Assembly: GCA_045837725.1 (NCBI GenBank)
Contig: JBEWZL010000216.1
Coordinates: 124,001-188,000 of the forward strand
From: Vermamoeba vermiformis
Lineage: Eukaryota
Direction of reading: 5' to 3'
DNA length: 64,000 nucleotides
In this document: positions 17,727 to 40,022 of the stretch, one piece after another
Layout of the letters: each line of letters begins with the position of its first letter
How positions within the stretch are numbered: position 1 is the stretch's first letter
Position numbers and translations under genes: made by a program
The notes under the pieces: generated by a model
The model's input: the letters and a program-made list of their open reading frames with translations, nothing else
Told to the model about the DNA's origin: nothing
The model's database searches: none

Positions 17727-20233
17727 ATGGCATCGACAGCATTGAAGTGCGTATTATTGGCATTTTTCTTACCACAGGTACGATACGGATCCAAATTCTG
17801 AACTTCCGCATAACAAGTCGATCAACTACTACTAGTAGATCGAATGAATATCAGGATAAATTGCTTCAAATTTAGCCTAAAAACCATCTAATAATTATTC
17901 AAATCTTTATTTTAGGTTTTTGGACTCTACTCCGTTGAGATCCAGCTGTTGATGTCGCAAGGCATCGAATGTACGGCTTGTACATCTGACTCAACAGGCA
18001 CGCAGGTATTAATATACATATATAATATCCATTGCTTATTTTCTTAGCCTATTGAAAATTCATTTTTGACGCACTTTAACTAGTGGAATGTAAATCCAGG
18101 CGGCACTGGCGATTTAATCGCTAATATCACTATGCCCGAGAACAACAATAGTACATCCTATTCCGAGGCTCTTTGTTGCAAATATCTATTTTCTCAAGAC
18201 GAATTAACGATCTTGCAAAACAACACGGATGTGCTTACTCAGATCAACCTGTCATTTTACCGATGGGCCCAATATGGTACGTTAATCCTATATAACATCG
18301 ATTTTATACTTCCGGATTTATCTAATTGTTCATAATTAGATTTAAATGACGGATCTGCATCGGCATTCGATTATGCGTACAATGTAGCGCTCTTCAACAA
18401 TACTAACGGCCAAATATTGTACTCATCTTGGCAAGCTAGTGATATCAATAGCACTCCTATTGGTCAGGATACAACTAGCGTATTGTAAGAACAAATTTTT
18501 TGCTTTTTTTTTTGCCCAACCGAAAAAATTAATCTTCTTTCCTTATTAGTACAAGTTCCGTGGATAATCCTGAATATACAAATAAGGTCAAATCGGTCTA
18601 TATTGTCGTCGGATATCAAATTGCAAGCAACACCAACGCTACTGTCAACTTCGCAAATATTACTGTCAGTTTGGTATTCGATGATACAGGTACGATCATA
18701 AAATTTCTATATTTGGCAGTATCACTTAAAATATTATTCGTTTTAACGAAATTTCAGAACGATTGCAAGCACGAGCGATAAGTTACGGAGTTGGCCTTGG
18801 CGTTGGTCTGCCAATCGTTTTTCTTGCAATTTTCTTGCCAGTTTATTTCAAGAAGATTAAGCCACGTCAATTAAATAAGAAGAATAAGGACAATTTAAAA
18901 GATATGGAAGCTGCGCAAAAGAATGAAGGCACATCCACGGATCCAAAGTACGGCTCAATTTCTGCCACGCCACGAGCCAATTCTTCGAAAAGCACTGCGG
19001 AGCTTCTTGCTACAGGAAATTACAGTCCGTTAGGACCAGTTGACAACGGTAAATAGAATTTTTTTTGCGTTACCTAACGTGGTTTTTTTTTTTTCAGTTT
19101 CAGCACCAGGAAGCAAGTCAAAAAGTGGCGAAAGTAAACATATGCAAGACCGATTCAATATCCCGTACAAAGAGATTTCGTTCAAGCGCGAGATTGGTGC
19201 AGGAGGATTCGGCAAAGTGTTCATGGGTGAATGGCAAAGCACTGAAGTTGCCATCAAGGTCAGCAACAATATCTCGTCGTACCAAGAGTTTCGCAAAGAA
19301 GCTGAACTCATGGTGTAAGTACAGACGGGTTCGGAAGTCATCCCGATGACACGTGTCAAAAGTGTCATTACTTTTACGGTACGAATCTTAACGACTAATC
19401 AAATTCAACTAACGTTGCTTTTAGGAATATTCGACCTCATCCTAATGTGCTGCAAGTGCTTGGTGTCTGCACTGACGGCGTGTCACCAGCGATCATCATG
19501 GAGTACTGTCCCGGCGGCAGTTTGGATCTGCTTTTATTCGACAAATCAAAGCCAGTGACAGCAGAGTACCAGTTCAGATTGATTCTTGGCATTGCACGAG
19601 GAATGCTTCATTTGCACAAAAACAACATTGTTCATCGTGATCTTGCTGCCAGAAACATCTTGGTACGTTAAATACTTAGACAATGTTCGTGAACTGACCA
19701 ATCAAATAACAGCTGTCACGTGATGGCGAACCAAAGATTTCAGACTTTGGCATGTCTCGTATTATCGAGTCATCGATCAAAGAAGGTACTACCAGAACGA
19801 ATATAGGACCTATTCGATGGATGGTAAGTCTTGTTATGAATGTTGAGCGAGGCGGTCACGGATCTAACGAAATTTCAAGGCACCAGAATCGATCAAGAGC
19901 AAAAAGTATAGCACAAAGTCAGACGTATGGAGCTTTGGCATCGTTATCAGTGAAATATTGAACAGAGAAGAGCCACATTCGGAGATTGAAGACGTGCTCG
20001 AGATAGCAATGGCCATAAGAAACGAGAATAGGACGCCAAAAGTGCCAGAAGACGTGCCTGATTTCATCAAAGATATTATGAAACAATGTTGGGCTGCAAA
20101 TCCTGATGAACGACCGGTAAGATTCGGATCCTGAAAATTTAGGAGTGTAACAATCACGTGCTAACTTCCTTTTTAGGAAATGGATGCGATTTGTGACAAA
20201 TTGATCAAATACAAAGATCAAAACAGCTTGTAA
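17727..20233 (+). CDS. Single-pass receptor kinase 1 (tyrosine-kinase/TKL type)
   Basis: Signal peptide, ectodomain, TM GVGLGVGLPIVFLAIFLPVYF. Kinase motifs GAGGFGKV, VAIK, HRDLAARN, DFGMSR, GPIRWMAPE and SDVWSFG. Confidence 0.9.
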
Positions 20234-20405
20234 ATATGGACGGTAAAATAGCATTATCTACGATGCTTAGAGAGGCGGCGAATTGAAGTCCTTTTGGCGA
20301 AAATTTGTATCTCGTTGGCATTTTGATCCCTTTTTCGGATTTTCGTGCTGTAACAAATCAAAATTCCATTTTTACAATCATTTACATCAAAAGAGCACAA
20401 GGAAA

Positions 20406-23059
20406 ATGAGTGCAGGATTGATCGCATTACTTGTGCTGGGCTCTGTCTCGCTGGTAAGATCAGATCGGATGTGACACTCGATTATTGAAATTAAAGTAGA
20501 TTCCTTCCATTAGTATAATAAATTTATTTTTGCTAATAATATTGATTTTTAGGCGCTTGGCTCGCGACAGCAAATGTATGTCGATTTGACACCATCCGAA
20601 GTTGAGAGCTGCTACGCGTGCGCATATGGAGATTTAGTTACTAAAAATACGACTTCGGTAATTATAATATTGAATTTAGCGAGCGTTCAGATTTTTCTTT
20701 TTTTATTTATTTATTCGATCCGATCGCCTTGCGAATTAGTTAAATCGGAATTAATTCATTAAATCTATCATTGATAAATTATGAATATTTAAGTAGTATT
20801 AATTAGTGCCTTGACAGTGGACCGTTCAGCCGAGGGCCGCAAATGGCACTGAATTATTCCTCGGGCAGATCTACATGACTGCAAGCAGCAACGATAGTTT
20901 TAGCTTTTCAGAGCCTATTTGTTGCAGATACGCCTTCACTAAAAGCGAATTGGCTATCATTCAACAGGGCAGAATTTTAACGGCGAATTTGACTTTTCAT
21001 CGTTGGGCTGTTTATAGTAAGGACTATTAAAAGGCTCAGGTTTTACTCATTTAATTAATTAAATTCTTTTTTTGCATAGATAATGACGGAAAACCTTATG
21101 GAGTTGTAGATTACGCCTATGGATTTAAAATTGACGACGGCACTGGCGGTGAATTGATCCACGAATTGTGGACTTTGCAGGACATGCCAAAAGCCCCCAG
21201 ATTAGGCACTGATGCATCGGATTATTTGTACGTATAGGACAGACACCCAAATTTAATTTAAACTTTCAGACTCAATTTTTATTTTGTTTTCTCAGCGAGG
21301 GTTCTTTTGACACATCCAGCGACTCGGGGTATCTTAGCACTACTGTCTACTTAATCATCGCATATCAAATTATTAATACTGCACAAGACGCTGACGTGGC
21401 CTATTCAAGTGTATCTGTTGTCCTTCTGATTGAGGACGGTAAGTACCAGATCCATTCGTCACCGTCTCAACATGTTACGCGATCATTATTAATATATATT
21501 ATATAGCTGATGTTGTTGGCATTGGCTTTGGGGTTGGTTTCGGAGTTGGTGTTCCTATCGTCTTTTTGGCCTTTTTCTTGCCGGTCTATTTCTGTGTTAT
21601 TAAGCCAAAGAGGCAAAAGAAGATCGAGGCCAAGGCCATAGAAATGGTCAATAACTCTAAGCACAATAGTACTAATACCAAGTACGGTGCGATCTCGGGA
21701 ACCATCTCCACGACAACAACTGGATCCGATGGTCTTTTGGGTGGAAATTACAGCCCTCTCGGTCCTACCACACGTAAGTGTATGACCCAGTTCATATATT
21801 GTTTTCATTAACTTGGCAAGTACTCTGATGTCTAAGTACTAATTTCCTTGTTTGGCAAAGTTGACGTGACATCGAGTGCGGTGAAACCACCAACCAAAGG
21901 CGATATGAACGAACGATTCAATATCCCCTACAGAGAGATCACATTCAAGCGCGAGATTGGCGCAGGAGGATTCGGCAAAGTGTTCATGGGTGAATGGCAA
22001 AGCACTGAAGTTGCCATCAAAGTCAGCAACAACGCGACTTCAAACGATGAGTTTCGCAAAGAAGCTGAGCTCATGGTGTAAGTAGTGCATTCCGATTCAC
22101 GAACGATGACACGTGTCAAAAGATACTGCACTACTATTTAATGTTAACTACCCTAATTTACGACCGTGTCATTTTTTTCGCGTGTCAAACTTAATTTAGT
22201 GCTGTGATCACTAAATGTTTTCATATATTTCAGCAATGTTCGACCTCATCCTAATGTGCTTCAAGTTCTCGGAGTTAGCACTGACGGAATAGCTCCAGCG
22301 ATCATCATGGAGTACTGTCCTGGCGGTAGTTTGGATCTGCTTTTATTTGACAAATCAAAGCCGGTCACGGAAGAGTACCAGTTCAGATTGATTCTTGGCA
22401 TTGCACGAGGAATGCTTCACTTGCATAAGAACAACATTGTTCATCGTGATCTTGCCGCTAGAAACATCTTGGTATGAATTGAAATCTCCTCAATATCTAC
22501 GGAACTAACACCGATGACAGCTGTCACGTGACGGTGAACCAAAGATCTCAGACTTTGGCATGTCTCGTATTATCGAGTCATCGATCAAAGAAGGCACCAC
22601 GAGAACGAATGTGGGTCCAATTCGATGGATGGTGCGTTAAAAATGTTTTGGCGATATCTTTGCAAAAATTCTTCGCACCGGTTATTTACGTTGATTGTTT
22701 TATTAGGCCCCAGAATCGATCAAGAGTAAAAAGTATAGCACGAAATCAGACATATGGAGCTTTGGTGTTGTTATCAGTGAAATATTGAACAGAGAAGAGC
22801 CGCACAAAGAGATCGAAGATGTGATTGAAGTCGCGATTGCCATTCGAAATGAGTTGAAAACACCGAAGATCAATCCTGACGCACCTGAACTGCTCAAAGA
22901 GATCATGCAACAATGTTGGGTTATTATTCCTGATGAAAGACCCGTAAGTGCATCTTACATCATGAAATCGTTCTGTTACCGGTAACTTACTTTCCAGTTT
23001 AGGAAATGGACGTGATTTGTGACAAACTGATCAAATACAAAGATCAAAACAACCTGTAA
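20406..23059 (+). CDS. Single-pass receptor kinase 2 (paralogue)
   Basis: Same architecture and kinase intron positions as kinase 1. Starts MSAGLIALLVLGSVSL, ends KYKDQNNL*. Confidence 0.9.
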
Positions 23060-23250
23060 ATTATAGCGTTAGGTTTGTAAATATACCAAGCTTCAAAATC
23101 TAGATATTATTATCCGTAATTCGTTCCAAGAAGATTTTTTGTCTGTTGGCATTTTTGATCCTTTTCCGTTTTTCGGTTCTGTAAGGATTCAAAATTTCAA
23201 AGTTTTACCAATCTTTTACAAATTGATAACAACAGCACAAGAAAGAAGCC

Positions 23251-26089
23251 ATGCGTGCAATAAATATACTGCTTGTGCTTAGTTTGGTTTACTTGGTACG
23301 TCCGGATTTGACATGTTAAAATCAACTCGAGCTTATTTCGCTCCTTCAAAAATAGTAAAAATAATTATAATAATTACTATAATAAATGTATTATTTTGAT
23401 TAGGCAATGGGCTACCGAGAACAAGTTGTCATTTCAATTACGCCGGATGGAGTCGATTGCTATGCATGTTCCTACGGAGACACTACAAATAATACAGGAT
23501 CTGTAAGTATAAATTATCTTTATTAATTGACATTTTGGCGATTTTTGGATGTTCACAAATCTGGATCTTCGATTCTGCTGTTCGGACGCTTTCCGCTCGT
23601 TATATTATGATCCTAAATATCGACGATGTATGAATGACGCTGACGATTTTTGATTTGTTAGTGGGACTACCAGCCAAAAGATTCTTACGGGAATTCCATA
23701 TTGCTGGGCCAAGTTTCGATGCCTCAAAGTAGCAACGATAGTGTTAGCCTTTCAGAGCCTATTTGTTGCAAATATTTATTCAGCACGAGTGATTTGGCAA
23801 TAATACAGAAGGGCGCCCTCTTAACCGTCAATTTGACGTTAAGCCGTTGGGCTGAGTATAGTAAGTAATAACTTATTCTAAATATTTAAATGCTATTTAT
23901 TATAAATTAATTAATTCACGACCAAGCAGATCCGTTCTAACACAATTAGATTAAATTTAAATTTTTAAAAATCTGTGTTTTTTATACTTTACCGAACGAC
24001 TTACTAACCTTTTGCAATAGATAGTAATGACAAGCCCTTTAGAGCGTACGATTTTGCGTATGGTTTTGGGATCTACAACAGCAGTAACGGCGAGTTGACA
24101 TCCGCCATTTGGACGTTGAATCAAACAACGCTTCAAACAGCACCTTGGATTGGACCAAATTCAACCGATTATTAGTACGTAAAATTAATATAATTTAACT
24201 CGAAATATACGTATCTTTACTAACTAAAATTGGATCTTAGCGAGGGCTACTTCGACGATCCCGGTTATGACGTCTATTCCACAGCAACCTATTTGCTAAT
24301 AGGCTACCAAGTAGTTAATATTGGACAAGACGCTATTGTTAAGTACTCAAATGCCACAGTAACTTTTATTGTTGAAATGGGTAAGTTGATCCGGATTTGT
24401 TCGCTAATTTATCGGTTAACGTAATGCATTTTTATAGCTATAAAATTGTCTCGCAAACATATATTTCATTACTAATGTCTTCTAGGTGACAGCGGAGCCG
24501 GCGTTGGGCTTGGCGTTGGACTTGGCCTCGGTGTTCCGGTCGTGTTTTTGGCGATTTTCTTGCCGCTGTATTTCTTAAAAATCAAGCCTAAACAACAAAA
24601 GAAGAAAGAGGCCAAGGCCGTAGAGATGGGCAAGAGTTCTCAGACCGGTACGACAAATACCACTTACGGCGCAATCTCGGGAACTAGCTCTACGACAACA
24701 ACCGGATCCGACAGTCTGTTGGCTGGTAATTACAGCCCTCTCGGTCCTACCACACGTAAGTATACGCATTGATTCATACATAGTTTTCATAAGCTTGGCA
24801 AGCTCTATGATATTCTGGTACTAATTTCCTTATTTGGTAAAGACGAAGGTTCCTCGACTGCCGTGAAGCCATCGAAGAAGGGCGATTTGAACGATCGATT
24901 CAATATTCCGTACAGAGAGATCACGTTCAAGCGCGAGATTGGCGCAGGAGGATTCGGCAAAGTGTTCATGGGTGAATGGCAAAGCACTGAAGTTGCCATC
25001 AAAGTCAGCAACAACACGACATCGAATGAAGAGTTCCGCAAAGAAGCCGAGCTCATGGTGTAAGTACAGCTTATTCTGGCATCTCATTCATGAACGATGA
25101 CACGTGTCAAAAGATACTTTCGTACTATTCCTACTCTATTACGTGCGTTAATCCGTTGACACGTGTCAAATTTTCACGTTGAACTCTGACTACAAACTTA
25201 TCGATGACACGTGTCACGAAATTTCACTATGGACTGCATTACTAACGATTTATACCCTAGTAATATTCGACCGCACCCGAACGTGCTTCAAGTTCTCGGA
25301 GTTAGCACTGACGGAATTGCACCAGCGATCATCATGGAGTACTGTTCTGGAGGCAGTTTGGACCTGTTGATGTTCGACAAGTCAAAGCCAGTGACCGCAG
25401 AGTACCAGTTCAGATTGATTCTTGGCATTGCACGAGGAATGCTTCATTTGCACAAAAACAACATTGTTCATCGCGATCTTGCCGCCAGAAACATCTTGGT
25501 ACGTGTTATTTCCTTAAATGGACCTCCGTTCATGAACTGACCAATCAAATGACAGCTGTCACGTGATGGAGAACCAAAGATCTCAGACTTTGGCATGTCT
25601 CGTATTATCGAGTCATCGATCAAAGAAGGCACTACGAGAACGAATGTGGGTCCTATTCGATGGATGGTAAGTCCACAAGAAATCTTTGCAAAAATTCACC
25701 GTGAAACTTCTAACGCGAAATTTCACAAGGCCCCAGAATCGATCAAAAGCAAAGTTTACAGCACAAAGTCGGACGTATGGAGCTTTGGCATCGTTATTAG
25801 TGAAATATTGAACAGAGAAGAGCCGCACAAAGAGATCGAAGATGTGATTGAAGTCGCGATTGCCATTCGAAATGAGTTGAAAACACCGAAGATCAATCCT
25901 GATGCACCTGAACTTATCAAAGAGATCATGCAACAATGTTGGGCCATTAATCCTGATGAACGACCGGTAAGTTTTGAATTAATTTTATTTTTTGGACTGG
26001 TTTTTTGGATCTAACGCTACTTTCCATTTTAGGAAATGGACGTGATTTGTGACAAGCTGATCAAATACAAAGATCAAAATAACTTGTAG
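23251..26089 (+). CDS. Single-pass receptor kinase 3 (paralogue)
   Basis: Same architecture. Starts MRAINILLVLSLVYL, and the kinase motifs are intact. Confidence 0.9.
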
Positions 26090-26403
26090 AATTATTTATT
26101 ATTAGCATGTAAAATAATAAAGGTTTGTTAATCTCAATTGGCGCCTTACTTTCTGTTGATAGCTTGGAATATCGATTGACTGGCCGTGCTTCCGCAAATC
26201 TTTTTGGGAAAGAATTTAAATTTTTAATGATTTCGAGAAAATTGATGAATTGTACTTTGCATTCACTCTGCCGTTCAATCTGCAAATGACACGTGTCACA
26301 AACTGATCGTTGCGTACAATCAACAACTTTAACAGAAAGAATTTCTTACGCTATTCGGTAATAATGTAATTTTATATGCTTAACATCCGAACTTTCGTGT
26401 AAT

Positions 26404-28607
26404 TTACATATCGTCATCGCAATAATATCCGCCCAACCAGTCGATATTGTCCGATTCCGATTTCTCTCTCCAAGCCACACATAGTCCTAACGAAGCTTGT
26501 TGTTTGAGCTGGCCAATTGTTTCTACGATGTGAACGTCTTTTTGACACTTGTCACAAAATACTTTGGTGTCAGTGTCTTTGACATTTTTGAAGTTTTCAA
26601 GGATCATCGGGCACTCAAACACTAAACTGCAATTTTCTGCAAATATCACGTGATCAATAACATTAAGGCGTACAAAACAAATTTTTTTCTTACCGATCGG
26701 ATGTGGGTCGCTGACACTTTTCGTGGCTTGTACTCTTCGGGTAAAAAACTTATACCAATTTTTGACTTTCAAATCGGGATTCTGATTCGGAAATTTCTTG
26801 TAATACAATCGACGCCATACTGGATCCAGCCCTAACATGATCTGTCTCCATTTTTTGTTTACGACACTCATGCTTATAAGTGCAAATGCTTCTGAATGAC
26901 TAGCATACTATATTGAAAAATAATTAATAAATGTCATTGCGTAGCAGTAAAATTTCAGATCTGGATTTGGATCAAGATCCAAAATTAACGGTGAGTAATT
27001 AAACTAAAACTCAACTAAATTGTATTGCTCATAATAATATTATATACATATAGCTGTACCTCAAATATGATTTGCAACAGCTCCAAAGGCACGGCGTTGA
27101 TGCCAGCAGTCCGCTGAAATTTCGGGGCATTTTTGACGTCCCAGCTAAACTTCGACGCACCAAAATTGTACGAGATCGTTGCACTTCCTAAAAAGGAAAT
27201 CGTGGGAAAACAATCCATGCCGTCGTTAACTTTGCGACCGGCGACGAATCCGATCCACTTTCCATTTTTAGTTAAAAATATACGGTGAGTGTTGTAAGAG
27301 TCCATAATTATTCCGCACCCAAAAATATCTCCGCTGGTCTGTAATAAAGTTGCTCCGCTGTGATTGGTCAAATGATCGCACGTTTGGTTTTGATCGATCC
27401 AACCAACTGCGTTCTGCATATTGCCGATGGAATTGTAGGTATTGAATAGAGTATCGCTGTAGCCAATCATAACATGAGCATCTATATAAATTTCAATTAG
27501 GTCATTTTTTAGCGGATGCACATCCAATAAGTTTTAAAAAGGAGTCAAAATCAATTAATTTAATATAGCATGCTATATATCAATAATAACAATCAACTGT
27601 TTCTTTACGTACCAGCCTTAATAATTTTGACTTCAAAGTAAGGAATTGTCGTGGGATCGGATCGAGCAAAATTTCTATTTGCTTGAAGTGAACGATACCG
27701 AATCTTATCGTTGCAGTTGATAGAAATTATATTGCTATCTTCTACTTCGAATTTAATGTCCTTCTGCTTGACAAAATGCGTTGGAATTGTAGAATTTTCC
27801 TGCGATCGCAGATCGAGTCAATTTTCGGAGGCTTAGAAATACTACTCGAGGCTTAATATATATACGTACGCCGAATGGATCATGTGCAAATTTTCTTTCG
27901 CCAAAATTTACTGCGATGTGCTCGCCTTTGTTACTGAGAGTAACGAAGGGGACCAATGAAACAAACGGATTCGTTCTTTTGTTCGACGGTAGAAATCGCT
28001 TAGTACCATCAGGCAGTACGAAGAATAGTCTTTCTAAAATATAATTAACGAATTAGAAATTTGGGAAAAGAACCGGATCTTTAAGGTCCAAATCCACCTA
28101 CGTTCAGTAAAATCGATACCACAGCCTACAATAGCATTCTTTTGATCAAATCTAGCTTCAATTTCGCTACTTATATATTTTCCATTGTAGTATATCTTTC
28201 CGTCTGCTTGATATTCAAAACGTCCTAAAATATCGGATCAGATTCACCTTAGAAAATAATTACACACTCTAATACTTACTGTTAATCTCATCTATTACAC
28301 CTAATGATATTTTTCTACTTGCACCGATCGATAGAATTTGTATTTCTGAACAAATAAAAACGATTAATTCGGGAATATTTTTGGAATTCAATTGAATAAG
28401 AGTAATAATTGAATTTAAGCTCATATTATTGCAGAAGCTATAGTATTTACCAAAGTAATGTCGGTCAGGAATTTTTAATTCGTTAGGGAGCCAAGATATT
28501 GATTTCAAGTTCAGATCTCGTACTTTCGCTTTGTACGTCGTCAAATATGTGCCATCTATCATCATCGCTCTTATTTCTACATCTTTAGACGTATTGAATT
28601 GCGACAT
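26404..28607 (-). CDS. Tandem SPRY domains + F-box + small C-terminal Cys-rich domain
   Basis: Two SPRY-like units (YFE..I, VGCGID/FGCGII, FLTKNG, VNFG..F). F-box INAVPLELLQIIFE...VNKKWR. C-terminal FECP..FCDKCQKDVH..GLCVA. Confidence 0.75.
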
Positions 28608-28914
28608 TTTGGGCTTCGATTGTGTGGTCTTCTAAATCTAAAACGAACAGATTTGGCGGATTCATTTTTTGCTCCAACTCGCTCAGCTACGCATTCTGCC
28701 GAATGTAATCACCATCCGAGGCGGTATCATCAGAAAAAATGGGGAATATTATGCGATCACACATACTTTCTCAGAGTTAGGCTCGGAATCATGAGACGTT
28801 TCAACCGTCCCTTGCGTCTCATTCGATTAAATGCATTTCATGAGTTCTAAATAGCCGCAAGATTTTATTTACATGAGATACATTGATTATATACAAGTTT
28901 AAGTGATATTCGCT

Positions 28915-29328
28915 TTAATTCTGGGTTTCTAGCTTCAGATCAGGATCCGAGGGCATTAGAAAAAGGTAAAGCGAAAGGAAAACGCCAGTTACTATTGTTA
29001 GATGAGTAAGGTACCACAGAATGAAGATTCTAACGGGCAAGAAGTCGGCATCATCCGAGCACATGGCAAAAGCACCAACGCAACAAAATCGATCGCGGCA
29101 ACTGATCGGCACGCCATCAACTCCGCGATCTTTAAATACGTTGAATAATCTTATTTCAGTCAATAAGATCTCGGTTTCGCTTAGATAGCCTTTTGTTCTC
29201 TTCACTAACTTTATTGCAAAGTAGATCGTGATTGCGACCAAATAAAGTACGTAGAAGATCAATAGAAGCAACGGAGGTAAAAGCCTAGGGTCCATATTAT
29301 TATCTTCAGTAGCTTTTGAGGTGTTCAT
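28915..29328 (-). CDS. Hypothetical small intronless membrane protein (2 TM)
   Basis: Open frame from ATG 29328 with two long hydrophobic stretches. No family recognised. Confidence 0.4.
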   Translation of the reverse strand: MNTSKATEDNNMDPRLLPPLLLLIFYVLYLVAITIYFAIKLVKRTKGYLSETEILLTEIRLFNVFKDRGVDGVPISCRDRFCCVGAFAMCSDDADFLPVRIFILWYLTHLTIVTGVFLSLYLFLMPSDPDLKLETQN

Positions 29329-30663
29329 TGTGGCCGTCAATTAACAATAAAACTGAAATGCACCGTAATAAATTTTGTGACGGCCGCAAACAATATGAAG
29401 GGTCCGCAGACGGGACAGATCCGCCTTTCGCGAAAAACTTTCATACTTAGCCAATTGCATAAGGAAACACGCTCCAAAAGTCATATTAGGGGACGTACCT
29501 TGGGACTAAATTAATTGTAAAGTGTCATATCACCCTGTCAAAATCGATTTACGCATGACGTTCCATCAATTTTACGGCGCTGGGAAACCATTAAGTCCCC
29601 GAAAATATAGAACCGCCTATGAGTCTCGAGCTCTTAATACGGACACAAAACCTTTAAACTTGTGTGCCAACCTGGATCAGATTCGGAATTCAAAAAAAAT
29701 TCAGGCAGATTGCTTAAGTATAATGGCTATTATACGATCAAACGATCAGCTATCCTCGTGAAGTTAGGTTCAAAATGAACCTGGCAAATGTTGTCCTGCA
29801 AAGTGACGTGAAGTCTCTTCGATTGATTAAAATGTGACATTTTAGACTATTTCGGGCTATAATCCTAATAAAATGGCTTGAACTTAAGATAAAATAATTT
29901 GGTCCAATCAAATACGGCTAAGTAAAGGTAGGCAAAGTCTAAATTGCAGAGAGGACCACAAGGCAAGTGATTTTTAGTCTTGTTGGGCTTTTTACACACT
30001 TGACAGGCAGTGACAAATCCGTAATTTGCGATAGTAAACGACAAGATACAAAGTTTTTGGCTACGGAGAGTACCCTTGATATTTTGAGGTACACCCGGCC
30101 TAAAAACTTCCAACGTTAAATTTGCGATCTGGAATGAGTTCCCAAAAAAAAGGCATCATGATGCCAAATTCCACAAGACTGAAAATTCACTTGACTTGGC
30201 TATAGCGAAGCGTAAAGTGTCAACTGATGTCACGTGTCATCTGTCATTCTGCATTCGCTGGGAAAAAACAATTCATTCAAGGAAAGGCCACTTCGAGACC
30301 AAAAGTCCCCCACCAGAATTCGAGCTATTTCGATCTGGATGCAACAGCTAGATGCTGTCGCATAGCAAACTTTTGATCGATAGGTAACCAGAGGTTTTAT
30401 ACGAAAAATTGTCATCGTATTAAACTAAAATTGCAATTAGATCTAGCTAACCGGACCACGAGTAAATTTTTAATTTTTCGACGGTTTCTAAATATAGCAG
30501 AAAGATTTTCAATATTGTGTCATGTATCTTAACTATGCAATAAGCAAACAAGGCTTTAGGCGGCGTAACGTAAAGATTTAAAATGCGGAGAAGTTTCGGG
30601 CCCACGAAATTTTATCGTTGGACTTTTAGTTCTAATACTGAATTATGAAGAATACTAACGAAA

Positions 30664-33440
30664 ATGAAAATACACATATGGCAGTGCATTTGGCTATTGG
30701 TATCGGTCGTATTGGTAAGTGGATGGACGACTGGATCAGCGGCATCCGCTTTTCATGACTTTATTTCATGTAATATTGCTTGTAAATTATACTAATAATT
30801 CACGAAATTCAAGTTATTATAATTAAACTTAAATTCGTTTCAAAAGAAATTTAATTTAGGACGGATGCGATCCCATGTGTCGGTTTACAAAAATTAATAT
30901 TTCTATTCTAGGCCATTACTAGCACTGTAAATGCTGATCAAAAGAATATTTACCTTGTATACGACTCTCCAGCTTATTGTGACGTAGATATTTGCCCTCA
31001 ATCTGGTCTCAGTCCGGTAAGTGCCTACAAATACCCGTTTAAATTAATATCAATATTTATAGTCATATTTATTATATTAATAAGCTTATGCCATATCAAA
31101 GCTATAAAATTATTAATTTGTGTTACCTCGATCAAAGTGGAACGTTACAATAGGCACGAACGATCTTGCCGTAGCAACCGTCCTACCAGGCACAACTACG
31201 CCTATATTATGTTGCGTATTACCATTGGATATGTTGAAAACAGAAAAAGTTTCGATCGGGCAGCTACAAACAGTGTCGATTGATTTTTATCGCGAAGTAG
31301 ACTACGGTAAGAGCAAAATAAATATTATGATATTATTTTACTAATATTAATTAGGACTTGCGGTCGTTTCAAGGCAGATTTTTAATGCTGGTTACGGATT
31401 TGCTATTTTGGATAATCAAGCCAGTGTAGTTTACACAGATAATACTACAGATACCTCTACTACCGATAATAACCTTGTACCTGAAACTTCCAGCGTATTG
31501 TAAGTAATATAATCCTATAATTAATAACATTAACGATGTTCTAATGTCAGATCGAAAACTTACAATATTCCTGCCGGATCTATTCCACAAAACGCTTCTG
31601 CTTTGCTTGTCGCTTATGCCGTATTTAGTAGACAAGTAATAGAGAGGCCTATAGTCACATGGCAAAACGCTACAGCAAGACTTCAATTTGAAACGTGTAC
31701 GTAATGTGTTTTTTTTCCGCTGCGCACCACCAGATCCACTAACATTTTTTCCGCTTAGCAATTGTCGATACGGCCAATCAAGATACTAGACTTGCACTAG
31801 GTCTCGGCATAGCACTCGGCGTGGGTGGTGTAGTCGGGTTAGGCATTATGACTATCTTCGTGATCCGCATGAAGAGGCGCGAGAAAAAATTGAAAAAACA
31901 AAACGCGAGCAATAAGACCGTAGAAATGGACGGAGTTAAAAAAGTTTTGGATAAAAACGTTGGACCTGACCCAGAGAACGGAAAATATACATCGATTAGT
32001 ACCGACAAAAGTACTTCACCTAATACAACGACCGGATCTGGCTCCGGAGGCAATTATAACGAATTACCGAGCTTAAATCCGATCGCTGAATCTTCTACAG
32101 GTACCAAATCTTTGCTGAAATTCCACGACTAAAATCGCTGAAGTATTTTTTCAAGCAGATCTCGCTCGCCCAAGCAACTTGAATGATCGATTCAACATCC
32201 CGTACAGGGAGATTTCATTCAAGCGCGAGATTGGAGCAGGAGGATTCGGCAAAGTGTTCATGGGTGAATGGCAAAGCACTGAAGTTGCCATCAAAGTCAG
32301 CAACACGATTGCAGCGTACGAGGAGTTCAAAAAAGAAGCGGAACTCATGGTGTAAGTACAAATTATGATTCATGAACGATGACACGTGTCAAAAGATACT
32401 TTCGTGCGTTTTTAAGAAAATTATTTGGATTACCTGAACTTTCGGCACTGTTGGAGCGAATCATTTTCCTTTGACACGTGTCATGAAATTTCACTTCGCG
32501 ACATTGCGGTGACTAACACTTATTTTGACAGTAATATTCGACCTCATCCTAATGTGCTGCAAGTGCTTGGTGTCAGTACCGATGGACCTTCACCAGCGAT
32601 CATCATGGAGTACTGTCCTGGAGGCAGTTTGGATCTGCTTTTATTTGACAAATCAAAGCCAGTGACCGCAGAATACCAGTTCAGATTGATTCTTGGCATT
32701 GCACGAGGAATGCTTCATTTGCATAAGAACAACATTGTTCATCGTGATCTCGCTGCCAGAAACATCTTGGTACGAATTGTGATACCATAATATGAAAGAA
32801 TACTATTGTTACATTTACAATTATCATTTGCGAATGCAATTATAGTAATGTTTTGTAACAGCTGTCGCGGGATGGAGAACCGAAGATCTCGGACTTTGGA
32901 ATGTCTCGTATTATCGAGTCTACAATTAAAGAAGGCACTACTAAAACAAATATAGGACCTATTCGATGGATGGTAAGCTTATCGAAAGAGTTTAATTAAA
33001 GTGACACTTTGTGACACGTGTCATGTTCATTCATTAACGTGTCACTTTTTTTTTCAACAAGGCGCCAGAATCGTTGAAGAACAAAAAGTATAGCACAAAG
33101 TCCGATGTATGGACATTTGGAATTGTTTTATCGGAAATATTGAATAGAGAAGAGCCGCATAAGGGCACTGAAGACGTTATTGAAGTCGCTGTACAGATCC
33201 GAACAAACTTTTTGACGCCTCAGATCCCGGACAATACGCCAGCGGTTATTTCGGATATTATGAAAGAATGTTGGGCACCTAATCCAGAGGATCGACCCGT
33301 AAGTCTAATATTGGAATCGTTAATTAATAGAATATACTTTAAGAGATCCGCTCCGTTAACATATTAAAATTTTTCTATTTTAGGAAATGGAACAGATCTG
33401 CGAGAAACTTATTCAGTACAAAGAGAAGAACAACTTGTAA
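30664..33440 (+). CDS. Single-pass receptor kinase 4 (most divergent ectodomain)
   Basis: Signal MKIHIWQCIWLLVSVVL, TM ALGLGIALGVGGVVGLGIMTIFVI. Kinase exons are nearly identical to kinases 1-3. Confidence 0.9.
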
Positions 33441-33559: not shown

Positions 33560-35036
33560 TTACGGACTAGCACTGGGTATATTTTGCAATGACGCATCGG
33601 ATTTTAATTCCACGGTGCCAGTAGCGCTAGATTGCTGAGTTTTAGATTTATGCGAAGACGATGAATTCGGTGCCAAGACTCTTCGTCTATAAACGCCTAG
33701 GACTACTAAACAATATGACGCTTCTACTGCTCGTTCAACAAAGTCCGCTGCTATAGTGAACGCATCTCTTTGATCGCGTACCGCCAAAACGATGACGAAT
33801 CCGACTACAATTATAGTTACTAAAATCACCGCAATGCTGCTCATAATAGCCAACGAGGTCATCTATAGTATTATATGTCAATAAGGCGTTTATATATTAA
33901 TATTATATATACCTTTCTAATCACGCGTTTTCTGTCTTTATCAACGTCTTGGAACAGCTTCAATTGTTTTCGCACTTTGTAACCGAAATAAAGCAAGAAA
34001 GTTCCGGTTGTAATGCCAATAACGAATAAATAGCAAAAATAGAATATATGATAGCTGGATCTCGCTGGCTCCGAGATGTATTGCGGCAAGCTTGCAATCA
34101 CATCTCGTACGAATTGGACCAAAAATGTCAGAATCATGACGAATATCAATCTCTTTTGCACTATAGTGATAAATACTCTTCGTTGAGGCTTCGCGTGCAA
34201 ATAGGCGTCAATCCTAATTAGGCAAGTTAAAATTTTGAAATTTCATGATCCGGTACGAAATGACATACCAAATGTACATTATAGAGAACTGAATGTATAA
34301 ATACGACGTAACACCTAATCCGAGGAGTATGTTGCCGACCACTAATATTAAAAATTATTTAGGGAATTTTACATATTAATTGCGGATCCAATTAAAATCA
34401 AAAACACAGTACGTACTCTCGGGTATGACTTGTATATATCCATACTGATACATTGCAAGATAAAGAACTCGTACTATATTATAATATGTTAATAAAGCCC
34501 GTTATAAGCAATCAATATTCTGGATGTCAACTTACCTAATCCCAAAAATCCAACGATTGAATAGATCATTAACGTATAGCGATTGATATCTTTTATTTTG
34601 CCATTAGCATTCTTGACCTATATGAATCGAATCGTTAGCCTACGAGTCAAAAATTTGTAAACAAAATCAAAATTTAACGCGGGATTCGTCGATCCGCCGC
34701 CCCCGCCGAGAATGATTTAATACATTCGCAAATATGAAACTGTATTATTATACACGTATTGAATATAATATTTACCATTAATCCAATTTCCGTTACAGCC
34801 CAGACTAGAATCGCGAGGAATACGAGCGAGAAGAAAATTATTTGAAACATAAAGTAGATCCAGGTAGAGTCTGTTTGCGCATAAGCGAATATAGAGCAAT
34901 CTATGCCTAGATAATTCGTTTGACATGAACAAACTCCAATTTCAGTTGCGCAGTACCCAGTCGAGGCACATCCGTCAACAACGCAATTGAATGTTGAGTT
35001 GGTTGGATCTGGAGCTTCAAATACACTAGGCTCCAT
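33560..35036 (-). CDS. EGF-like + 7TM membrane protein A
   Basis: N-terminal six-Cys module CVVDGCASTGYCATEIGVCSCQTNYLGIDC, about seven hydrophobic helices over 6 exons, and a Ser-rich C-tail. Confidence 0.75.
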
Positions 35037-35920
35037 TGATTATGCTCGTGTGTAATAGATTTGCGTTAAAAAAATAAAAAATAATGAAAACGGCACGATT
35101 TTCGGCTGCTGACTTGTGTAACGCATAAATTCACATTAATTTGACAGGCCGAGACGCCGAAAATTATTTCGCCGGGTGGCATTTCATATAGTAAGCTAAT
35201 ATTGTGGTGCTTAATAATAAAAAGAACGATATTTCGTAACAATTATACAATGACAAACAAGTAATTTGAAACAATGCAAATTTGATCCAGATGCTGCACA
35301 ACGCAATAAGGAAAATAGATCTTGGCCTTCAATTATAATAAAATAAAAATATCATAGCATAAATTACATAACGTTTAAAGTGACGTTCTCTGGCGCCAGA
35401 GAAATGAAAGGGTAGATTCGATTTAATGAATAAAATTTATTCGCAATTCATCCTTGGAGAAAAAATTGACAGCCTGCGCCGTTAGGCCATATTACTAATT
35501 ACTAATTTTAGGACCGAATTTGGCAATAATAACGCTAGGGTAAACATCTACTACTTACAGATTCCACATCTCACCGGTTTGAAGGCCTTTCCATTATTTG
35601 ATTGTCCTAAGGTGTTCTCAAAAAATTGTTGAACATTAAGCATTAATTTTGCATCGCTTTTGCCCGTGCTGTTTCGTGTCATTGCAATTAGAAAAATGAA
35701 TCAAAAAATTACAGTCGTTACAAACCGCGAAACAAAAGATATTTCTTATTTAATAGAATACGAGCCACTAGAACAGGGTCCATATATGGAAAACGCAATT
35801 ATCCTTCTTGAAGCTTGCTTGCTTGTCGAAAGATTTTGGATGTCGATATTGCAATAATAAATTGTTTTCGAAGTTTGTTTTTAATGCTATGATACTTAAA
35901 CTATATACAATACATTGACA

Positions 35921-37652
35921 TTAAGCACTAGTTTGTGCAGCAGCCGGAGATTCTTTGTGCATTTCAACGGCGGTAGCGGTTCCGGTGGTCGGGCTCGAGG
36001 TGTGATTCGACGAGGATGAACTCGGAGCCATGACACGTGTTCTATATACTCCTAATATTACTAGACAATAGGTGGCCTCTACTGCACGCATCAATGGACT
36101 CGCGATAATAGTGCTCAGTTCTGTGTCTCTTCCAGTGAACGTAACTACGATCAACGAAACGAGAAGAAAAACGACTAAAATCAATACGATACTGCTCGTA
36201 ATGGCCAATGCATTCATCTATAAAATTAATTGTTAATATAATATGCAAACTATATAAAATACGTAAACGCGGAACGCACAATGGTCGCCGCCGAACTTTT
36301 GCTAGATCCGGCTCCGCTTTCGAAATTGCACAAACAATTTTGAAATTGAAAACTATTATGATCCGATCACTAAAGAGACTTCGTATTGTCAAATTGATTT
36401 TGATGTCAACAGAAAGCATCAAAACTAAGGTTTACGGATCTAGATCCACGGTTATTTTTGCAATATATACCATTTGTGATTTTAAATTAACGTTTCAAAT
36501 TAATTAAATAATTTAAACGACTTACCCTTCTAATCAATCTTTTTCTACTCCTATCAATATCTTTGAACAACTTCAATCGTCTTTTGACGCGGACTCCAGC
36601 GACCAAAAGTGACACACTTGTGACAGTAGCAACCACAAACATGTAACAAAAATAAAACGCTTCCATTCCTTGTCTCGATTGTGCGGGTAATTGTGGCAAA
36701 CTAACAATGACGTCACGTGTCACTTGGACTGCAAATGTAAGTATGATCATGACGAACGTTCTTTTTTTCAAGATTTGAATTAATCGCTTTGGGTTTGGCT
36801 TTGTATGCAGATACGCATCAAGCCTATATTATATAAATTAACAATTAGTAATGCCTTTGAACTCACGGAAAAGAAAGCCGGTATTTCCTAATTTGGAAAT
36901 TTCGCGGATCCGCTTCTCGGCGATGTGCATACCATATATAAGCTATAGTAAACTGTACAAACATATACGCTGATATTCCTAAGCCGTGTATAATAGTACC
37001 GGCCACTAAAGACAGTTATTAGTAAATTTCGTTGGATGTCGAAATGTTCTGTGAATTTGCTTACTACTGGGAACTGCTAACACACGTCCTTCTTGATATA
37101 ATAGTATGTATATTAAACGGTCTATAAAGATATTTCGTTAATAAATATCCCGAAGGTATACGGAAGCGAAATTGTTTCTTACCGAGTCCCAAAAATGCGA
37201 TTACAATGTAGATCTGCAACGTGAACTTATTTATCTCTTTTATTTTGCCGTCAGCTCGCTTAGCCTATATAATAATAACATTAATATGCTTGTAAATTTT
37301 TCTTAAGCAAAGCTTAGCGGATCTAGAAAGTCCGTTTCAGTTACAACTTATTTATGTGCTCCGATTGCTTTAATATGCTCTATATATAATATTTAGACTA
37401 TAGACTTACCATTAATATTATTTCGATGATCGCCCAAATCATTAGAGTCGCAAATACTAGCGAGAAAAACACCATCTGGAAAATGAACCAGGTCCAAGTG
37501 CCCTCTGAAGCTTCATATATGAATAGGGAGCAGTCTTCACCGGCAAATCCATTTCGGCATACACAAGATCCGTCATCGGCACAAAATCCAGCGAGGGCAG
37601 CACATCCGTCGATTATGCAATTGAAAGTCGAGTTCAAACTTTCGGGCTGCAT
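35921..37652 (-). CDS. EGF-like + 7TM membrane protein B (paralogue)
   Basis: Same exon structure as A. CIIDGCAALAGFCADDGSCVCRNGFAGEDC, and the conserved YCLVILGVYR in the last TM. Confidence 0.75.
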
Positions 37653-38255
37653 GGTCGTTAATATAAAATATAATTAATAATGAAATTCGTGCGAGTATTC
37701 TACCCGACAACAAAAGCACAACGTGTGCACCGTAATTTCGCTGTTACGATTTTAGTAAAAATACGGAGAATAATTTGCATAATTTCGCCGTTTGTCCTAA
37801 AATACTTTCGAGTTGGTATAACAGAACTAACTTTCTATCCTAATTTAAGTTCGTATGAAAATTCGAAATTAAATCCGCAATTAAATCTGTGTAAAGAGGC
37901 TTACAGAGGTAAAACTTCATTTTAACAATTAATATTTTTGAAATAATATTTGTACCTATTAATTATCGCCTAGAAAAGCCAGGTATTAATTTTCCTTCTG
38001 GTTTGCTACGCATCCAAAGATTCTGTGGGGGAATTAAGGTAAGTTTGCAATGCTATATATTCATTTATCAATATCAATACGCTAGTGTTGTTAAGCATGT
38101 TGAAACGAGACAAATATAGCAGTAATTTTGAATTAATTTTATTTTGTTCCGCAATTTGAGCTATTTACAGCTCATCCTATTTACAATGTTCATTAAATAC
38201 AATATTATAGTACTATACATTATTCAGCTTAATACAAGCTTCCAATATCACGAAA

Positions 38256-39744
38256 CTAATCTTCCGTTGTAGTAGCAGATTTGGTGTTTGGCAGAGCAAC
38301 ATCAGTTCCGCTTCGAGTTCTAATTTTGTCCGTATTAATATCGACTTTAGAAGTAGCGTGAGTAAAGTTGGTGTTTTTAGAGATTGAGTTCGAAGATCTT
38401 TGAGCCAGTACGCGAGATCTGTAGACGCCTAAAATGACCAAGCAATACATCATCTCGACTACTCGTAAGGTGAAATCACTAGCTACTACTAAATTAATGC
38501 TTAATCTTCTCGCTACAGCGAATGCAAGCAGAACCACGGCGGTGACTAATACCAATGAAATAGATACGGCATTAGCAACCACGAGAGAATTGATCTGGTA
38601 GTAATATTCGGTTAATTAATATTTCTTCGTATTATGCTTTTATTTTCTTACCCTTTTAATCGTCCGCTTATTAATTTTACTGACGCCTTTGAAAGTTTTG
38701 AGTTGCCTTTTAACTTTAGTTCCGTAGACCAGCAGAAAAATGCCAGAGGATATGCCTACAGTAAAAAAGAAGCAAAAGAAAAATATTTCGATGCCTGCTT
38801 TCGAAACTATAGGCACTTCGGGAATACTTCGAACCACATCCCGTGTAAGCTCAACTAAGAGCAGCAGAATCATCCAACCTAGCAGCGACCGGCGAAGAAT
38901 AGTTATATGCTTCGTTGCATCAGACTTCGTATGAATATAAGCGTCCATCCTAAAAGATCCGTTAGTCGATCAGTCAACCAGATCTCTAATCTTGCTTACC
39001 AAATGTACATAATCGAAAATTGAATATATAGCAAGAACGTAATCGGTAGACCCGAGAGAACATTGCCAGCCACTACAATTTTTTCATAAGTAAGCGAATA
39101 TAACTTACTTTCTATAAAAGGAAAAACTGTACTAATGGTAAAATTTGTTTTTACGTACTGACGGGAACTTCTACCGCTAGTCCATACTGCACTACAGTCA
39201 AATAAATCACCCTAACTAATAAGAAATGCGTTAGAAATCCGTTCTAGTTGTCCAGATCCGTTTCCGTACAAACTCCAAGCAGAACAATAGATCACAAGAG
39301 TGTACAAGTTAATTTCTTTTCTATTCCCGTTAGCTTTTTTAACCTATCGGACAAATAATTAGGCACTTTTTGCTGTTTGAATAATTTTTAGATCTGGTAC
39401 AAAATTGGATTGCTCGCATCCGCTAACAATATGACAAAATACTTAGTAACTCGTAGATTTTACTCCTAATACTATATTGAAATCTCGTTCAACAACTTAC
39501 CATAAGTGCTATTTCAACTGCAGCCCAGATCGCAATTGTCGCGAAGACAGCGGAGCAAAAGACGAGGTGAAAGATGAAGAACTGCCATGTGCCCTCTGAA
39601 TGAGCATAGACGAACTCAGAACAAGTGTCTCCGATCCATCCTGGCCTACAGATACACAAATCAAATGTTGTATCGCAATAACCCGTATCAGCACATCCGC
39701 TAGCAACTGTAGATTGTTGAATTAGAAATATCACTAGGCTGCAT
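38256..39744 (-). pseudogene. EGF-like + 7TM paralogue C, apparently disrupted by two frameshifts
   Basis: The ATG frame MQPSDISNSTIYSC hits TAG at codon 15, while the EGF continues in another frame. Exon 2 also shifts frame before its donor, relative to paralogues A and B. The later exons are intact. Confidence 0.7.
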
Positions 39745-40022
39745 GGTGGTCTCTATAGACAAATAAAATACAAATGAGAATTAATTTAACCGCTGCTTTT
39801 CACATGTTTTTGTTCCAAATAAAATTTAACGACAAGTTCGTATTCCGAAATATACCAATAGCGGAATATTCTAAAGATAGAGCTAACGGCACAAAAAATT
39901 AAGAATTGTATATTGTACGTAATTACAATTACTACGCATTCCAAACGCCGAATTTTAAGCTCCGTTCGAATCTACAAAACAACTTTAGGTCGGAAGTCAT
40001 TTACTTTGGCAAATAATACGCG

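What the first reader, a model, noticed from the sequence alone, without database searches (positions are those of the whole stretch)
17727..33440. Receptor tyrosine-kinase-type array: homogenised kinase domains on diversified ectodomains
Seen: four co-oriented genes share intron positions. Kinase exons are almost identical even at synonymous sites; aagtgttcatgggtgaatggcaaagcactgaagttgccatcaa occurs in all four. The ~200-aa ectodomains keep only a skeleton (CxAC/CxxxxC, a W at an exon start, (I/L)CC, F.RW, YQ/YA, then a GxGxG TM). Established: HRDLAARN plus PIRWMAPE is the tyrosine-kinase-type signature. Inference: gene conversion of the signalling end with diversification of the sensing end is the pattern of immune or self/non-self receptor families. 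This could be an undescribed protist recognition system with an uncharacterised ectodomain fold.
Basis: partly seen in the sequence, partly recalled or inferred. Interest (0 to 1): 0.72.

Follow-up and report, generated by a model that had tools for sequence, protein, structure and literature searches.

The report
Amoeba receptor kinases swapping kinase cores
Four neighbouring receptor-kinase genes of a free-living amoeba keep old, distinct outer sensing domains while repeatedly copying the middle of their kinase between each other, a real but fairly ordinary pattern for tandem genes, with no sign that they are a self/non-self system.

Summary
The array is real: four 11-exon genes (signal peptide, ~190-aa ectodomain, one TM helix, tyrosine-kinase-type domain) with identical intron phases, in a Vermamoeba-like amoeba; two more members lie elsewhere in the genome. 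Gene conversion is supported, but only for kinase exons 7-9 (N-lobe to activation loop). There, paralogues of one genome differ at 29-41% of synonymous sites, orthologues in a syntenic locus of a related lineage at 63-64%, and AU tests reject the orthologue tree. Ectodomain, juxtamembrane and exons 10-11 instead follow orthology. 'Almost identical' is overstated. The ectodomains are old and under purifying selection (omega about 0.2 between orthologues); no omega above 1 and no allelic hypervariability was seen. The ectodomain has no Pfam family but folds as a known jelly-roll beta-sandwich (CBM15 and Fbs1/2 Z about 10; Eph ligand-binding domain Z about 8). Other tandem kinase clusters of the genome show a similar contrast. 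Best reading: a lineage-specific protist receptor-kinase family, probably sensing external (perhaps glycan) cues, with homology-limited conversion as in TLR1/TLR6. A self/non-self role is unsupported.

The parts
17727..20233 (+). Gene g1, receptor kinase, 589 aa. Exons 17727-17777, 17916-18005, 18084-18276, 18340-18484, 18550-18689, 18758-19048, 19098-19314, 19425-19662, 19713-19823, 19880-20116, 20177-20233
   Evidence: open frame, all GT-AG; RNA joint at intron 8 from reads of a diverged strain
20406..23059 (+). Gene g2, 589 aa. Exons 20406-20453, 20553-20657, 20818-21016, 21080-21227, 21296-21438, 21507-21773, 21861-22077, 22234-22471, 22521-22631, 22707-22943, 23003-23059
   Evidence: spliced relative P0003 is colinear
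23251..26089 (+). Gene g3, 588 aa. Exons 23251-23295, 23404-23502, 23662-23860, 24021-24174, 24241-24380, 24486-24755, 24843-25059, 25261-25498, 25556-25666, 25730-25966, 26033-26089
   Evidence: relatives P0003 and gene LA of L059
30664..33440 (+). Gene g4, 597 aa. Exons 30664-30714, 30912-31016, 31138-31306, 31355-31499, 31551-31696, 31759-32100, 32159-32351, 32532-32769, 32862-32972, 33062-33298, 33384-33440
   Evidence: orthologues P0028 and gene LB of L059; RNA joints at introns 7, 8, 9
17916..18689 (+). g1 ectodomain (exons 2-5), predicted jelly-roll beta-sandwich
   Evidence: homologous to the modelled ectodomains (alignments A6, A7)
20553..21438 (+). g2 ectodomain (exons 2-5)
   Evidence: 47% identical to P0003, whose model has pLDDT 70
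23404..24380 (+). g3 ectodomain (exons 2-5)
   Evidence: 47% identical to P0003
30912..31696 (+). g4 ectodomain (exons 2-5)
   Evidence: 66% identical to P0028, whose model has pLDDT 82, pTM 0.77
18778..18849 (+). g1 Gly-rich transmembrane helix (approximate ends)
   Evidence: hydropathy peak
21512..21601 (+). g2 transmembrane helix (approximate ends)
24497..24577 (+). g3 transmembrane helix (approximate ends)
31791..31865 (+). g4 transmembrane helix (approximate ends)
19157..19823 (+). g1 conversion-prone kinase core (end of exon 7 to exon 9)
21920..22631 (+). g2 conversion-prone kinase core
24902..25666 (+). g3 conversion-prone kinase core
32194..32972 (+). g4 conversion-prone kinase core
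22776..22879 (+). 104-nt tract identical between g2 and g3 (partner starts at 25799) in exon 10; a separate, more recent g2-g3 conversion
   Evidence: run of 17 shared silent sites, p 0.0009 uncorrected
26090..30663 (.). 4.6 kb between g3 and g4 with minus-strand F-box-like, SPRY-like and other open frames; absent between the matching genes of L059
19347..19358 (.). 12-nt palindrome in intron 7; also at 22107, 25098, 25157, 25205, 32380, 32472 (intron 7 of g2-g4), 16661, 26287 and 33012
   Evidence: 2793 copies genome-wide against 4 for the control

Best explanation
A small, old, lineage-specific family of single-pass receptor kinases of a Vermamoeba-like amoeba (at least 6 members, 4 in this array). 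SHOWN: architecture; within-genome homogenisation of kinase exons 7-9 among the tandem copies only; orthologue-specific ectodomain, juxtamembrane and C-lobe; purifying selection on the ectodomain (omega about 0.2, against 0.02 in the core). PREDICTED: jelly-roll ectodomain of the carbohydrate-binding-module type. INFERRED mechanism of the pattern: strong purifying selection keeps the catalytic core similar enough for neighbouring copies to serve as recombination templates, so patchy gene conversion keeps resetting synonymous and intron sites there, while regions that diverged long ago no longer convert. INFERRED function: each paralogue binds a different external cue (a glycan is most likely, about 40%), clusters through its Gly-rich TM helix, and phosphorylates tyrosines such as the two conserved juxtamembrane Tyr motifs, read by the amoeba's SH2 proteins. 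This is environmental or prey sensing, like the fast-turnover RTK sets of other unicellular eukaryotes, not allorecognition.
For: Synonymous difference (pS) in exons 7-9: window paralogues 0.29-0.41 (6 of 6 pairs); orthologues g4-LB 0.63 and g3-LA 0.64; L059 paralogues LA-LB 0.07 with a 95-nt intron 8 identical; dispersed members against the array 0.65-0.76. AU test rejects g4+LB in the core (p 4.5e-9) and rejects LA+LB in exons 10-11 (p 1.9e-4), where g4+LB has 99% support; the ectodomain tree groups g4, LB and P0028 at 100%. Sawyer-type permutation on 91 silent sites: p 1e-4. Omega by region. Two models of ectodomains about 20% identical give the same fold class, with CBM15 Z 10.2 (rmsd 3.7, 148 aligned), Fbs2 Z 10.0 (4.0, 155) and Fbs1 Z 9.9 (4.2, 149) for the better model. 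Best PDB sequence hits are tyrosine kinases. 33 SH2 matches of 37 candidates in the genome. Low synonymous divergence in 8 further neighbour pairs from 4 other clusters, several with far more diverged upstream regions.
Against: Only one syntenic locus with DNA (L059, a metagenome contig) supplies orthologues, and its 357-nt identical tract could be an assembly collapse. At protein level the third lineage keeps orthologue-specific residues in the core (P0028-g4 96%, P0028-P0003 87%), so conversion does not erase paralogue identity. The top structural hit is a viral capsid domain (IBDV VP2, Z 11.5 and 9.8), and protein-binding jelly-rolls (MAM Z 8.6, EphB2 Z 8.2) score close to the CBMs, so the ligand class is open. 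The activation segment has no Tyr and is Thr-rich, and MAP3K12 scores close to Abl (138.5 against 142 bits). Orthologue dS is 1.3-1.7, so omega is imprecise.
Confidence: 0.7

Rival explanations
1. Immune or self/non-self recognition family: ectodomains diversify under positive or balancing selection to recognise conspecifics or pathogens, while conversion holds a common signalling output.
For: The pattern matches TLR1/TLR6 (PMC2077338, abstract). The ectodomain evolves about 10 times faster than the core at non-synonymous sites. Even the single-copy c266 member is only 49% identical to its orthologue in the ectodomain against 99% in the kinase core. The fold resembles lectin-type modules.
Against: Omega is below 1 in 4 of 4 ectodomain pairs tested. 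Each paralogue type persists as an orthologue across lineages. Database cluster-mates are 97-100% identical in the ectodomain (their independence is unknown). The family is small. No linked ligand gene was recognised. Paired leukocyte receptors homogenise the opposite end (PMC3210942, abstract).
Confidence: 0.1
2. Conversion is itself favoured by selection: the paralogues heterodimerise and trans-phosphorylate, so the N-lobe and catalytic core must stay compatible, while ectodomain and C-lobe give each receptor its own input and substrate.
For: The converted interval is similar in two lineages (end of exon 7 to exon 9) and ends where paralogue-specific residues begin; the same argument is made for TLR1/TLR6 (PMC2077338, abstract).
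Against: The same boundaries follow from homology-limited recombination alone. The core has omega 0.02 between orthologues even without conversion. The two dispersed members persist without conversion.
Confidence: 0.12
3. No conversion: recent duplication of a kinase module onto older ectodomains, codon bias, or assembly collapse explains the low synonymous divergence.
For: L059 is a short-read metagenome contig. P0001 (g2/g3-type juxtamembrane on a g4-type kinase) shows that chimeric assembly or recombination occurs.
Against: Two switch points are needed, since exons 10-11 follow the ectodomain. The same exons are near saturation between orthologues (pS 0.62), and their GC3 differs by lineage (0.27 against 0.41-0.51). 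If LA and LB had been collapsed, one true orthologue pair would still stand at pS 0.63-0.64, above the paralogue value of 0.39 for g3-g4. The window copies differ at many sites, so they are not collapsed.
Confidence: 0.06

Closest known systems
Lineage-specific receptor tyrosine kinases of unicellular eukaryotes (7 TM-bearing PTKs of Acanthamoeba castellanii, PMC4053784 section 10; clade-specific RTK sets of ichthyosporeans and filastereans, PMC4342544 passages)
   Same: Signal peptide, lineage-restricted ectodomain, one TM, TK-motif kinase; many such kinases plus SH2 readers in the genome; proposed role in sensing the environment.
   Different: This ectodomain family matched no Pfam model and, among real hits, only close relatives; partial gene conversion is not mentioned in the passages read.
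Mammalian TLR1/TLR6 (PMC2077338, abstract)
   Same: Tandem paralogues; orthologues closer in the N-terminal sensing part, paralogues closer in a conserved signalling stretch, by independent conversions in each lineage.
   Different: No LRR or TIR domain. Here the converted stretch excludes the TM and the C-terminal end, and no ligand or immune role is known.
Plant tandem receptor-like kinase clusters (cysteine-rich RLKs, PMC6368629 passages; malectin-like OAK cluster, PMC3136440 passages)
   Same: Tandem receptor kinases with conserved kinase, variable ectodomain and conversion between neighbours.
   Different: Those are plant RLK/Pelle kinases (recalled); this kinase has the HRDLAARN motif. 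OAK shows positively selected ectodomain sites, which could not be tested here.
Eph receptors and CBM4/15/16/27, Fbs1/2 (jelly-roll beta-sandwich domains)
   Same: Predicted ectodomain fold: EphB2 Z 8.2 (rmsd 4.2, 144 aligned), CBM15 Z 10.2, Fbs2 Z 10.0. Eph also joins such a domain to a tyrosine kinase with juxtamembrane tyrosines (recalled).
   Different: Sequence identity 6-10%, no Pfam match, and no Cys-rich, FN3 or SAM domains: a shared superfold, not shown homology.

Membership tests
Receptor tyrosine kinase (sequence definition) | Signal peptide, ectodomain, single TM, cytoplasmic kinase | tested here: met
   hydropathy; PK_Tyr_Ser-Thr E about 1e-70 on spliced relatives
Receptor tyrosine kinase (sequence definition) | Catalytic-loop AAR motif and activation-loop Trp (TK-specific constraints in PMC8662651, passage) | tested here: met
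   HRDLAARN and PIRWMAPE in 4 of 4 genes; best PDB hits are TKs
Receptor tyrosine kinase (sequence definition) | Activation-loop tyrosine (usual in animal RTKs; recalled) | tested here: not met
   no Tyr between DFG and APE in 6 of 6 members
Receptor tyrosine kinase (biochemical) | Phosphorylates tyrosine; ligand-induced activation | not testable with these tools
   needs an enzyme assay
Holozoan group A versus non-holozoan group B TKs | Position in the TK tree | not tested
   no reference set was fetched; group B is expected from the lineage (PMC4342544, passages)
Concerted evolution by gene conversion | Paralogues closer than orthologues at silent sites in a bounded tract, with conflicting trees | tested here: met
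Concerted evolution by gene conversion | Depends on proximity: dispersed copies not homogenised | tested here: met
   c84 and c266 pS 0.65-0.76 against the 4 array genes
Self/non-self recognition loci (TgrB1/TgrC1, Alr, S-locus; features recalled) | Extreme allelic polymorphism or omega above 1 in the ectodomain | tested here: inconclusive
   whole-domain omega 0.19-0.40; cluster-mates 97-100% identical; no population sample and no site model
Self/non-self recognition loci | Linked, co-evolving ligand gene | tested here: inconclusive
   flanking and intervening frames look like TM, F-box-like, SPRY-like and EGF plus multi-TM genes; not modelled in full
Carbohydrate-binding module or lectin | Jelly-roll beta-sandwich fold | tested here: met
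   two models and four fold searches
Carbohydrate-binding module or lectin | Sequence match to a CBM or lectin family | tested here: not met
   no ectodomain Pfam hit above cut-off; no PDB sequence hit with E under 0.8; Atlas lead DUF642/CBM_4_9 at 0.85 only, none for the g4 type
Carbohydrate-binding module or lectin | Binds carbohydrate | not testable with these tools
   needs a glycan array
Eph receptors | Ligand-binding domain plus Cys-rich, two FN3 and SAM domains (recalled) | tested here: not met
   the ectodomain is one ~190-aa domain, the protein ends after the kinase, and there are no such Pfam hits

The most novel reading that the evidence does not exclude
An amoebozoan pattern-recognition receptor set convergent on TLR1/TLR6: lectin-like receptor tyrosine kinases that tell prey, pathogen or kin glycans apart, in which selected gene conversion keeps an interchangeable catalytic core for heterodimer signalling while ectodomain and kinase C-lobe are inherited together as matched input-output pairs.
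Probability: 0.12. Interest if true: 0.65.

Novelty: new member of a known kind. Interest (0 to 1): 0.33.

Why it matters
It adds an unnamed ectodomain family, with a confident jelly-roll model, to the little-studied receptor tyrosine kinases of free-living amoebae. It is also a clean case of domain-limited gene conversion outside animals and plants. The practical warning is that kinase-domain trees misassign orthology in such arrays, whereas the ectodomain and exons 10-11 keep it. If the domain binds microbial glycans, these would be testable candidates for how amoebae sense food and intruders through phosphotyrosine signalling.

Tried and rejected
Pfam on 12 ectodomain exon pieces and on 5 spliced relatives: no ectodomain family above cut-off. 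PDB sequence search with the ectodomain profile: 3 hits, best E 0.82. Word-based protein searches with ectodomain queries: 0 hits of 8 candidates and 1 of 8000. Profile search of 1.84 billion representatives: 7 hits, 3 of them family members (P0046, P0048, P0050); P0047 is a repeat protein and was rejected; P0049, P0051 and P0052 have many matched stretches and were not fetched. Atlas: a weak DUF642 lead for one ectodomain, nothing for the other. Malectin was not among the listed fold hits, which does not exclude it. Metagenome scan: 4 loci, only L059 was examined as a member; L060-L062 (27-30%) were not. Alignment A5 misplaced exon fragments and was replaced by A6 and A7. No RNA holder of this exact sequence was listed; the RNA runs laid come from a diverged strain and barely cover the ectodomains, so expression levels were not judged. 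Codon bias, conservation of the intron-7 motif and assembly collapse were considered as explanations of low pS and rejected for the window genes. Eight literature searches listed no paper on this family; most subscription papers are not covered. Four look-ups of earlier findings gave nothing relevant. No complex prediction was run. The window's own spliced proteins were not folded; the models rest on database relatives.
Full report
Observation. I modelled four plus-strand genes by hand from the sequence and checked them by script: g1 17727-20233, g2 20406-23059, g3 23251-26089, g4 30664-33440. Each has 11 exons, 10 GT-AG introns with the same phases (0,0,1,2,1,1,2,0,0,0) and an open frame of 588-597 aa: signal peptide, ~190-aa ectodomain (exons 2-5), Gly-rich TM helix, Ser/Thr-rich juxtamembrane with two conserved Tyr motifs, and a kinase. 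The quoted 43-mer occurs 4 times. Spliced database proteins are colinear with the models (P0003, P0028, P0004). RNA reads with the same species label but mostly 90-95% alike (112 of 154 and 228 of 279 laid reads) show joints at introns 7, 8 and 9; they hardly cover the ectodomains. g4 is set off from g3 by 4.6 kb of other frames. 'Almost identical at synonymous sites' is too strong: 20-33% of same-residue codons differ over the kinase and the longest identical tracts are 59-104 nt.

Organism and family. A cluster-mate of the g4 orthologue is a EukProt Vermamoeba vermiformis protein (96% identical to g4 in the core), so the window is from a Vermamoeba-like amoebozoan (inference). The genome holds many related kinases (155 matches; 150 of 353 candidates scored) and 33 SH2 matches of 37 candidates. 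The next two kinases, L034 (c84) and L035 (c266), carry the same ectodomain skeleton; c84 has all 10 intron phases and c266 has lost two introns. Three single-sequence genome searches and a profile search over the fetched loci found no further member. The family therefore has at least 6 genes; these searches are insensitive, so this is a lower bound.

Gene conversion. The metagenome contig L059 is syntenic: a g2/g3-type gene (LA, partial), a g4-type gene (LB), then the same EGF plus multi-TM gene as in the window. In the end of exon 7 to exon 9, pS is 0.29-0.41 among the 6 window pairs, 0.07 between LA and LB (95-nt intron 8 identical, 357-nt identical run), 0.63 for g4-LB, 0.64 for g3-LA, and 0.65-0.76 between the array and the dispersed members. 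Trees conflict. In the core LA+LB has 98% support and g4+LB is rejected (p-AU 4.5e-9). In exons 10-11 g4+LB has 99% support, and both LA+LB (p 1.9e-4) and g1-g4 (p 2.7e-4) are rejected. The ectodomain tree groups g4, LB and P0028 at 100% and g2, g3 and P0003 at 95%, with a long-branch warning from the tool for the deep join. A Sawyer-type permutation on 91 silent polymorphic sites of the four window genes gives p 1e-4; 2 of 6 pairs have a significant longest run uncorrected (g2-g3 p 0.0009, g1-g4 p 0.019). Codon bias cannot explain this, because the same exons are near saturation between orthologues. L059 could be partly collapsed in assembly, but one true orthologue pair would still exceed the paralogue values. 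Against a complete homogenisation, the third lineage keeps orthologue-specific residues in the core. P0001 and the genomic peptide P0024 look mosaic; assembly artefact was not excluded.

Selection on the ectodomain. Between orthologues g4 and LB, omega is 0.21 [0.11-0.33] in the ectodomain, 0.15 in TM and juxtamembrane, 0.02 in exons 8-9 and 0.09 in exons 10-11. For paralogues it is 0.19 (g2-g3), 0.40 [0.21-0.63] (g1-g3) and 0.30 (g3-c84, dS capped because saturated) (simple counting with Jukes-Cantor correction, dS 1.3-1.9). The ectodomains are thus old and constrained, though fast for a receptor: c266 and its orthologue share 49% there and 99% in the core. Site-level positive selection could not be tested. 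Cluster-mates of P0002, P0003 and P0004 are 97-100% identical in the ectodomain, but they may come from related samples. Of the 8 listed pieces of water-metagenome run X5 (415 pieces of the table not shown), those over ectodomain exons had 8 of 345, 10 of 266 and 0 of 319 differences, against 0 of 432, 1 of 324 and 24 of 327 in the intervening region: no clear excess, and weak evidence.

Ectodomain fold. There is no Pfam, PDB-sequence or strong Atlas match, and a profile search of 1.84 billion representatives returned 7 proteins, 3 of them family members. AlphaFold2 models of P0003 (pLDDT 70, pTM 0.66) and P0028 (pLDDT 82, pTM 0.77) are beta-sandwiches. For the better model VIA-align gives IBDV VP2 Z 11.5 (rmsd 3.3, 139 aligned), CBM15 10.2 (3.7, 148), Fbs2 10.0 (4.0, 155), Fbs1 9.9, CBM4-2 9.5, MAM 8.6 and EphB2 8.2, with 32 of 48161 chains at Z 8 or more. 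The fold is a common jelly-roll. Most neighbours bind glycans, some bind proteins; a shared fold shows no function.

Kinase type. HRDLAARN and the activation-loop Trp meet the tyrosine-kinase constraints named in PMC8662651 (passages seen), and the best PDB hits are Src/Abl-type kinases, with MAP3K12 close behind. The activation segment has no Tyr in 6 of 6 members, so tyrosine or dual specificity is a prediction.

Is the pattern special? For one kinase exon in 30 loci of the genome, 14 of 17 neighbour pairs differ at 6-30% of same-residue codons (6 pairs from this array, 8 from 4 other clusters); the other 3 pairs are at 43-50%, and 418 non-neighbour pairs average 55%, with a few near-identical dispersed pairs. 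In the C121 and C216 clusters and for one C13 gene, the kinase DNA aligns at 75-92% while upstream parts align mostly only as protein at about 35-60%; one C13 pair is simply a recent whole-gene duplicate. Conversion in those clusters was not tested with orthologues. The contrast appears to be a general habit of tandem kinase genes here.

Comparison with what is known. Amoebozoan TM-bearing tyrosine kinases with SH2 readers are described for Acanthamoeba (PMC4053784; section 10 and passages read), and clade-specific, fast-turnover RTK ectodomains for unicellular holozoans (PMC4342544; passages). Domain-limited conversion is described for TLR1/TLR6 (PMC2077338; abstract) and for tandem plant RLKs (PMC6368629 and PMC3136440; passages). 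Paired leukocyte receptors homogenise the ligand-binding end instead (PMC3210942; abstract). Two passages of the V. vermiformis draft genome paper said nothing on kinase families (PMC7125106). Supplements were not read; the Acanthamoeba kinase supplement could bear on whether a similar ectodomain is listed there. Features of allorecognition loci and of Eph receptors are recalled, not taken from a call. Eight searches listed no description of this family.

Verdict. The feature is real and the conversion claim holds for exons 7-9. The claims of diversifying selection, a new fold and a self/non-self system are not supported. It is a new member of a known kind, a protist receptor tyrosine-kinase-type family with partial concerted evolution: interest 0.33, with a 0.12 chance of the bolder pattern-recognition reading.

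Noticed in passing
window 16661, 19347, 22107, 25098, 25157, 25205, 26287, 32380, 32472, 33012; genome-wide: A perfect 12-nt palindrome (TGACACGTGTCA) has 2793 exact copies in the 43.3-Mb genome against 4 for the reversed control. All 10 copies in the window lie in or beside the kinase array, 7 of them in intron 7. In L059 the intron-7 site has a one-base variant. It may be an abundant transcription-factor site or a highly iterated palindrome and deserves its own study.
   Followed up: partly
window 33560-39752, minus strand: Three tandem genes with an N-terminal EGF-like domain and several TM segments, mostly 40-60% alike and GPCR-like in layout; one copy is syntenic in L059. They show no DNA-level similarity in the self-comparison.
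   Followed up: partly
window 26090-30663: Frames with weak F-box-like (26407-26907) and SPRY (27018-27533, E 1.6e-5) matches and a TM frame lie between g3 and g4 but not between the matching genes of L059: an insertion here or a loss there.
   Followed up: partly
G000 C13:497k-511k, C121:200k-209k, C216:59.8k-67k, C267:64k-71k (L037, L038, L063-L070): Other tandem clusters of related kinases with low synonymous divergence in the kinase and more diverged upstream parts.
   Followed up: partly
P0001, P0024: Database proteins joining a g2/g3-type juxtamembrane to a g4-type kinase: a natural recombinant or an assembly chimera.
   Followed up: no
window 31779-32232: A DNA run holds a second haplotype with 11 differences in 454 nt at about half depth over g4 exon 6 to exon 7.
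   Followed up: no
window 50320-53876: Two divergent actin-like genes in tandem, judged from the translations.
   Followed up: no
window 10343-10945 and 44553-45861: A secreted Cys-rich 200-aa frame and a secreted beta-rich frame with a Cys-rich end, neither with a Pfam match above cut-off.
   Followed up: no
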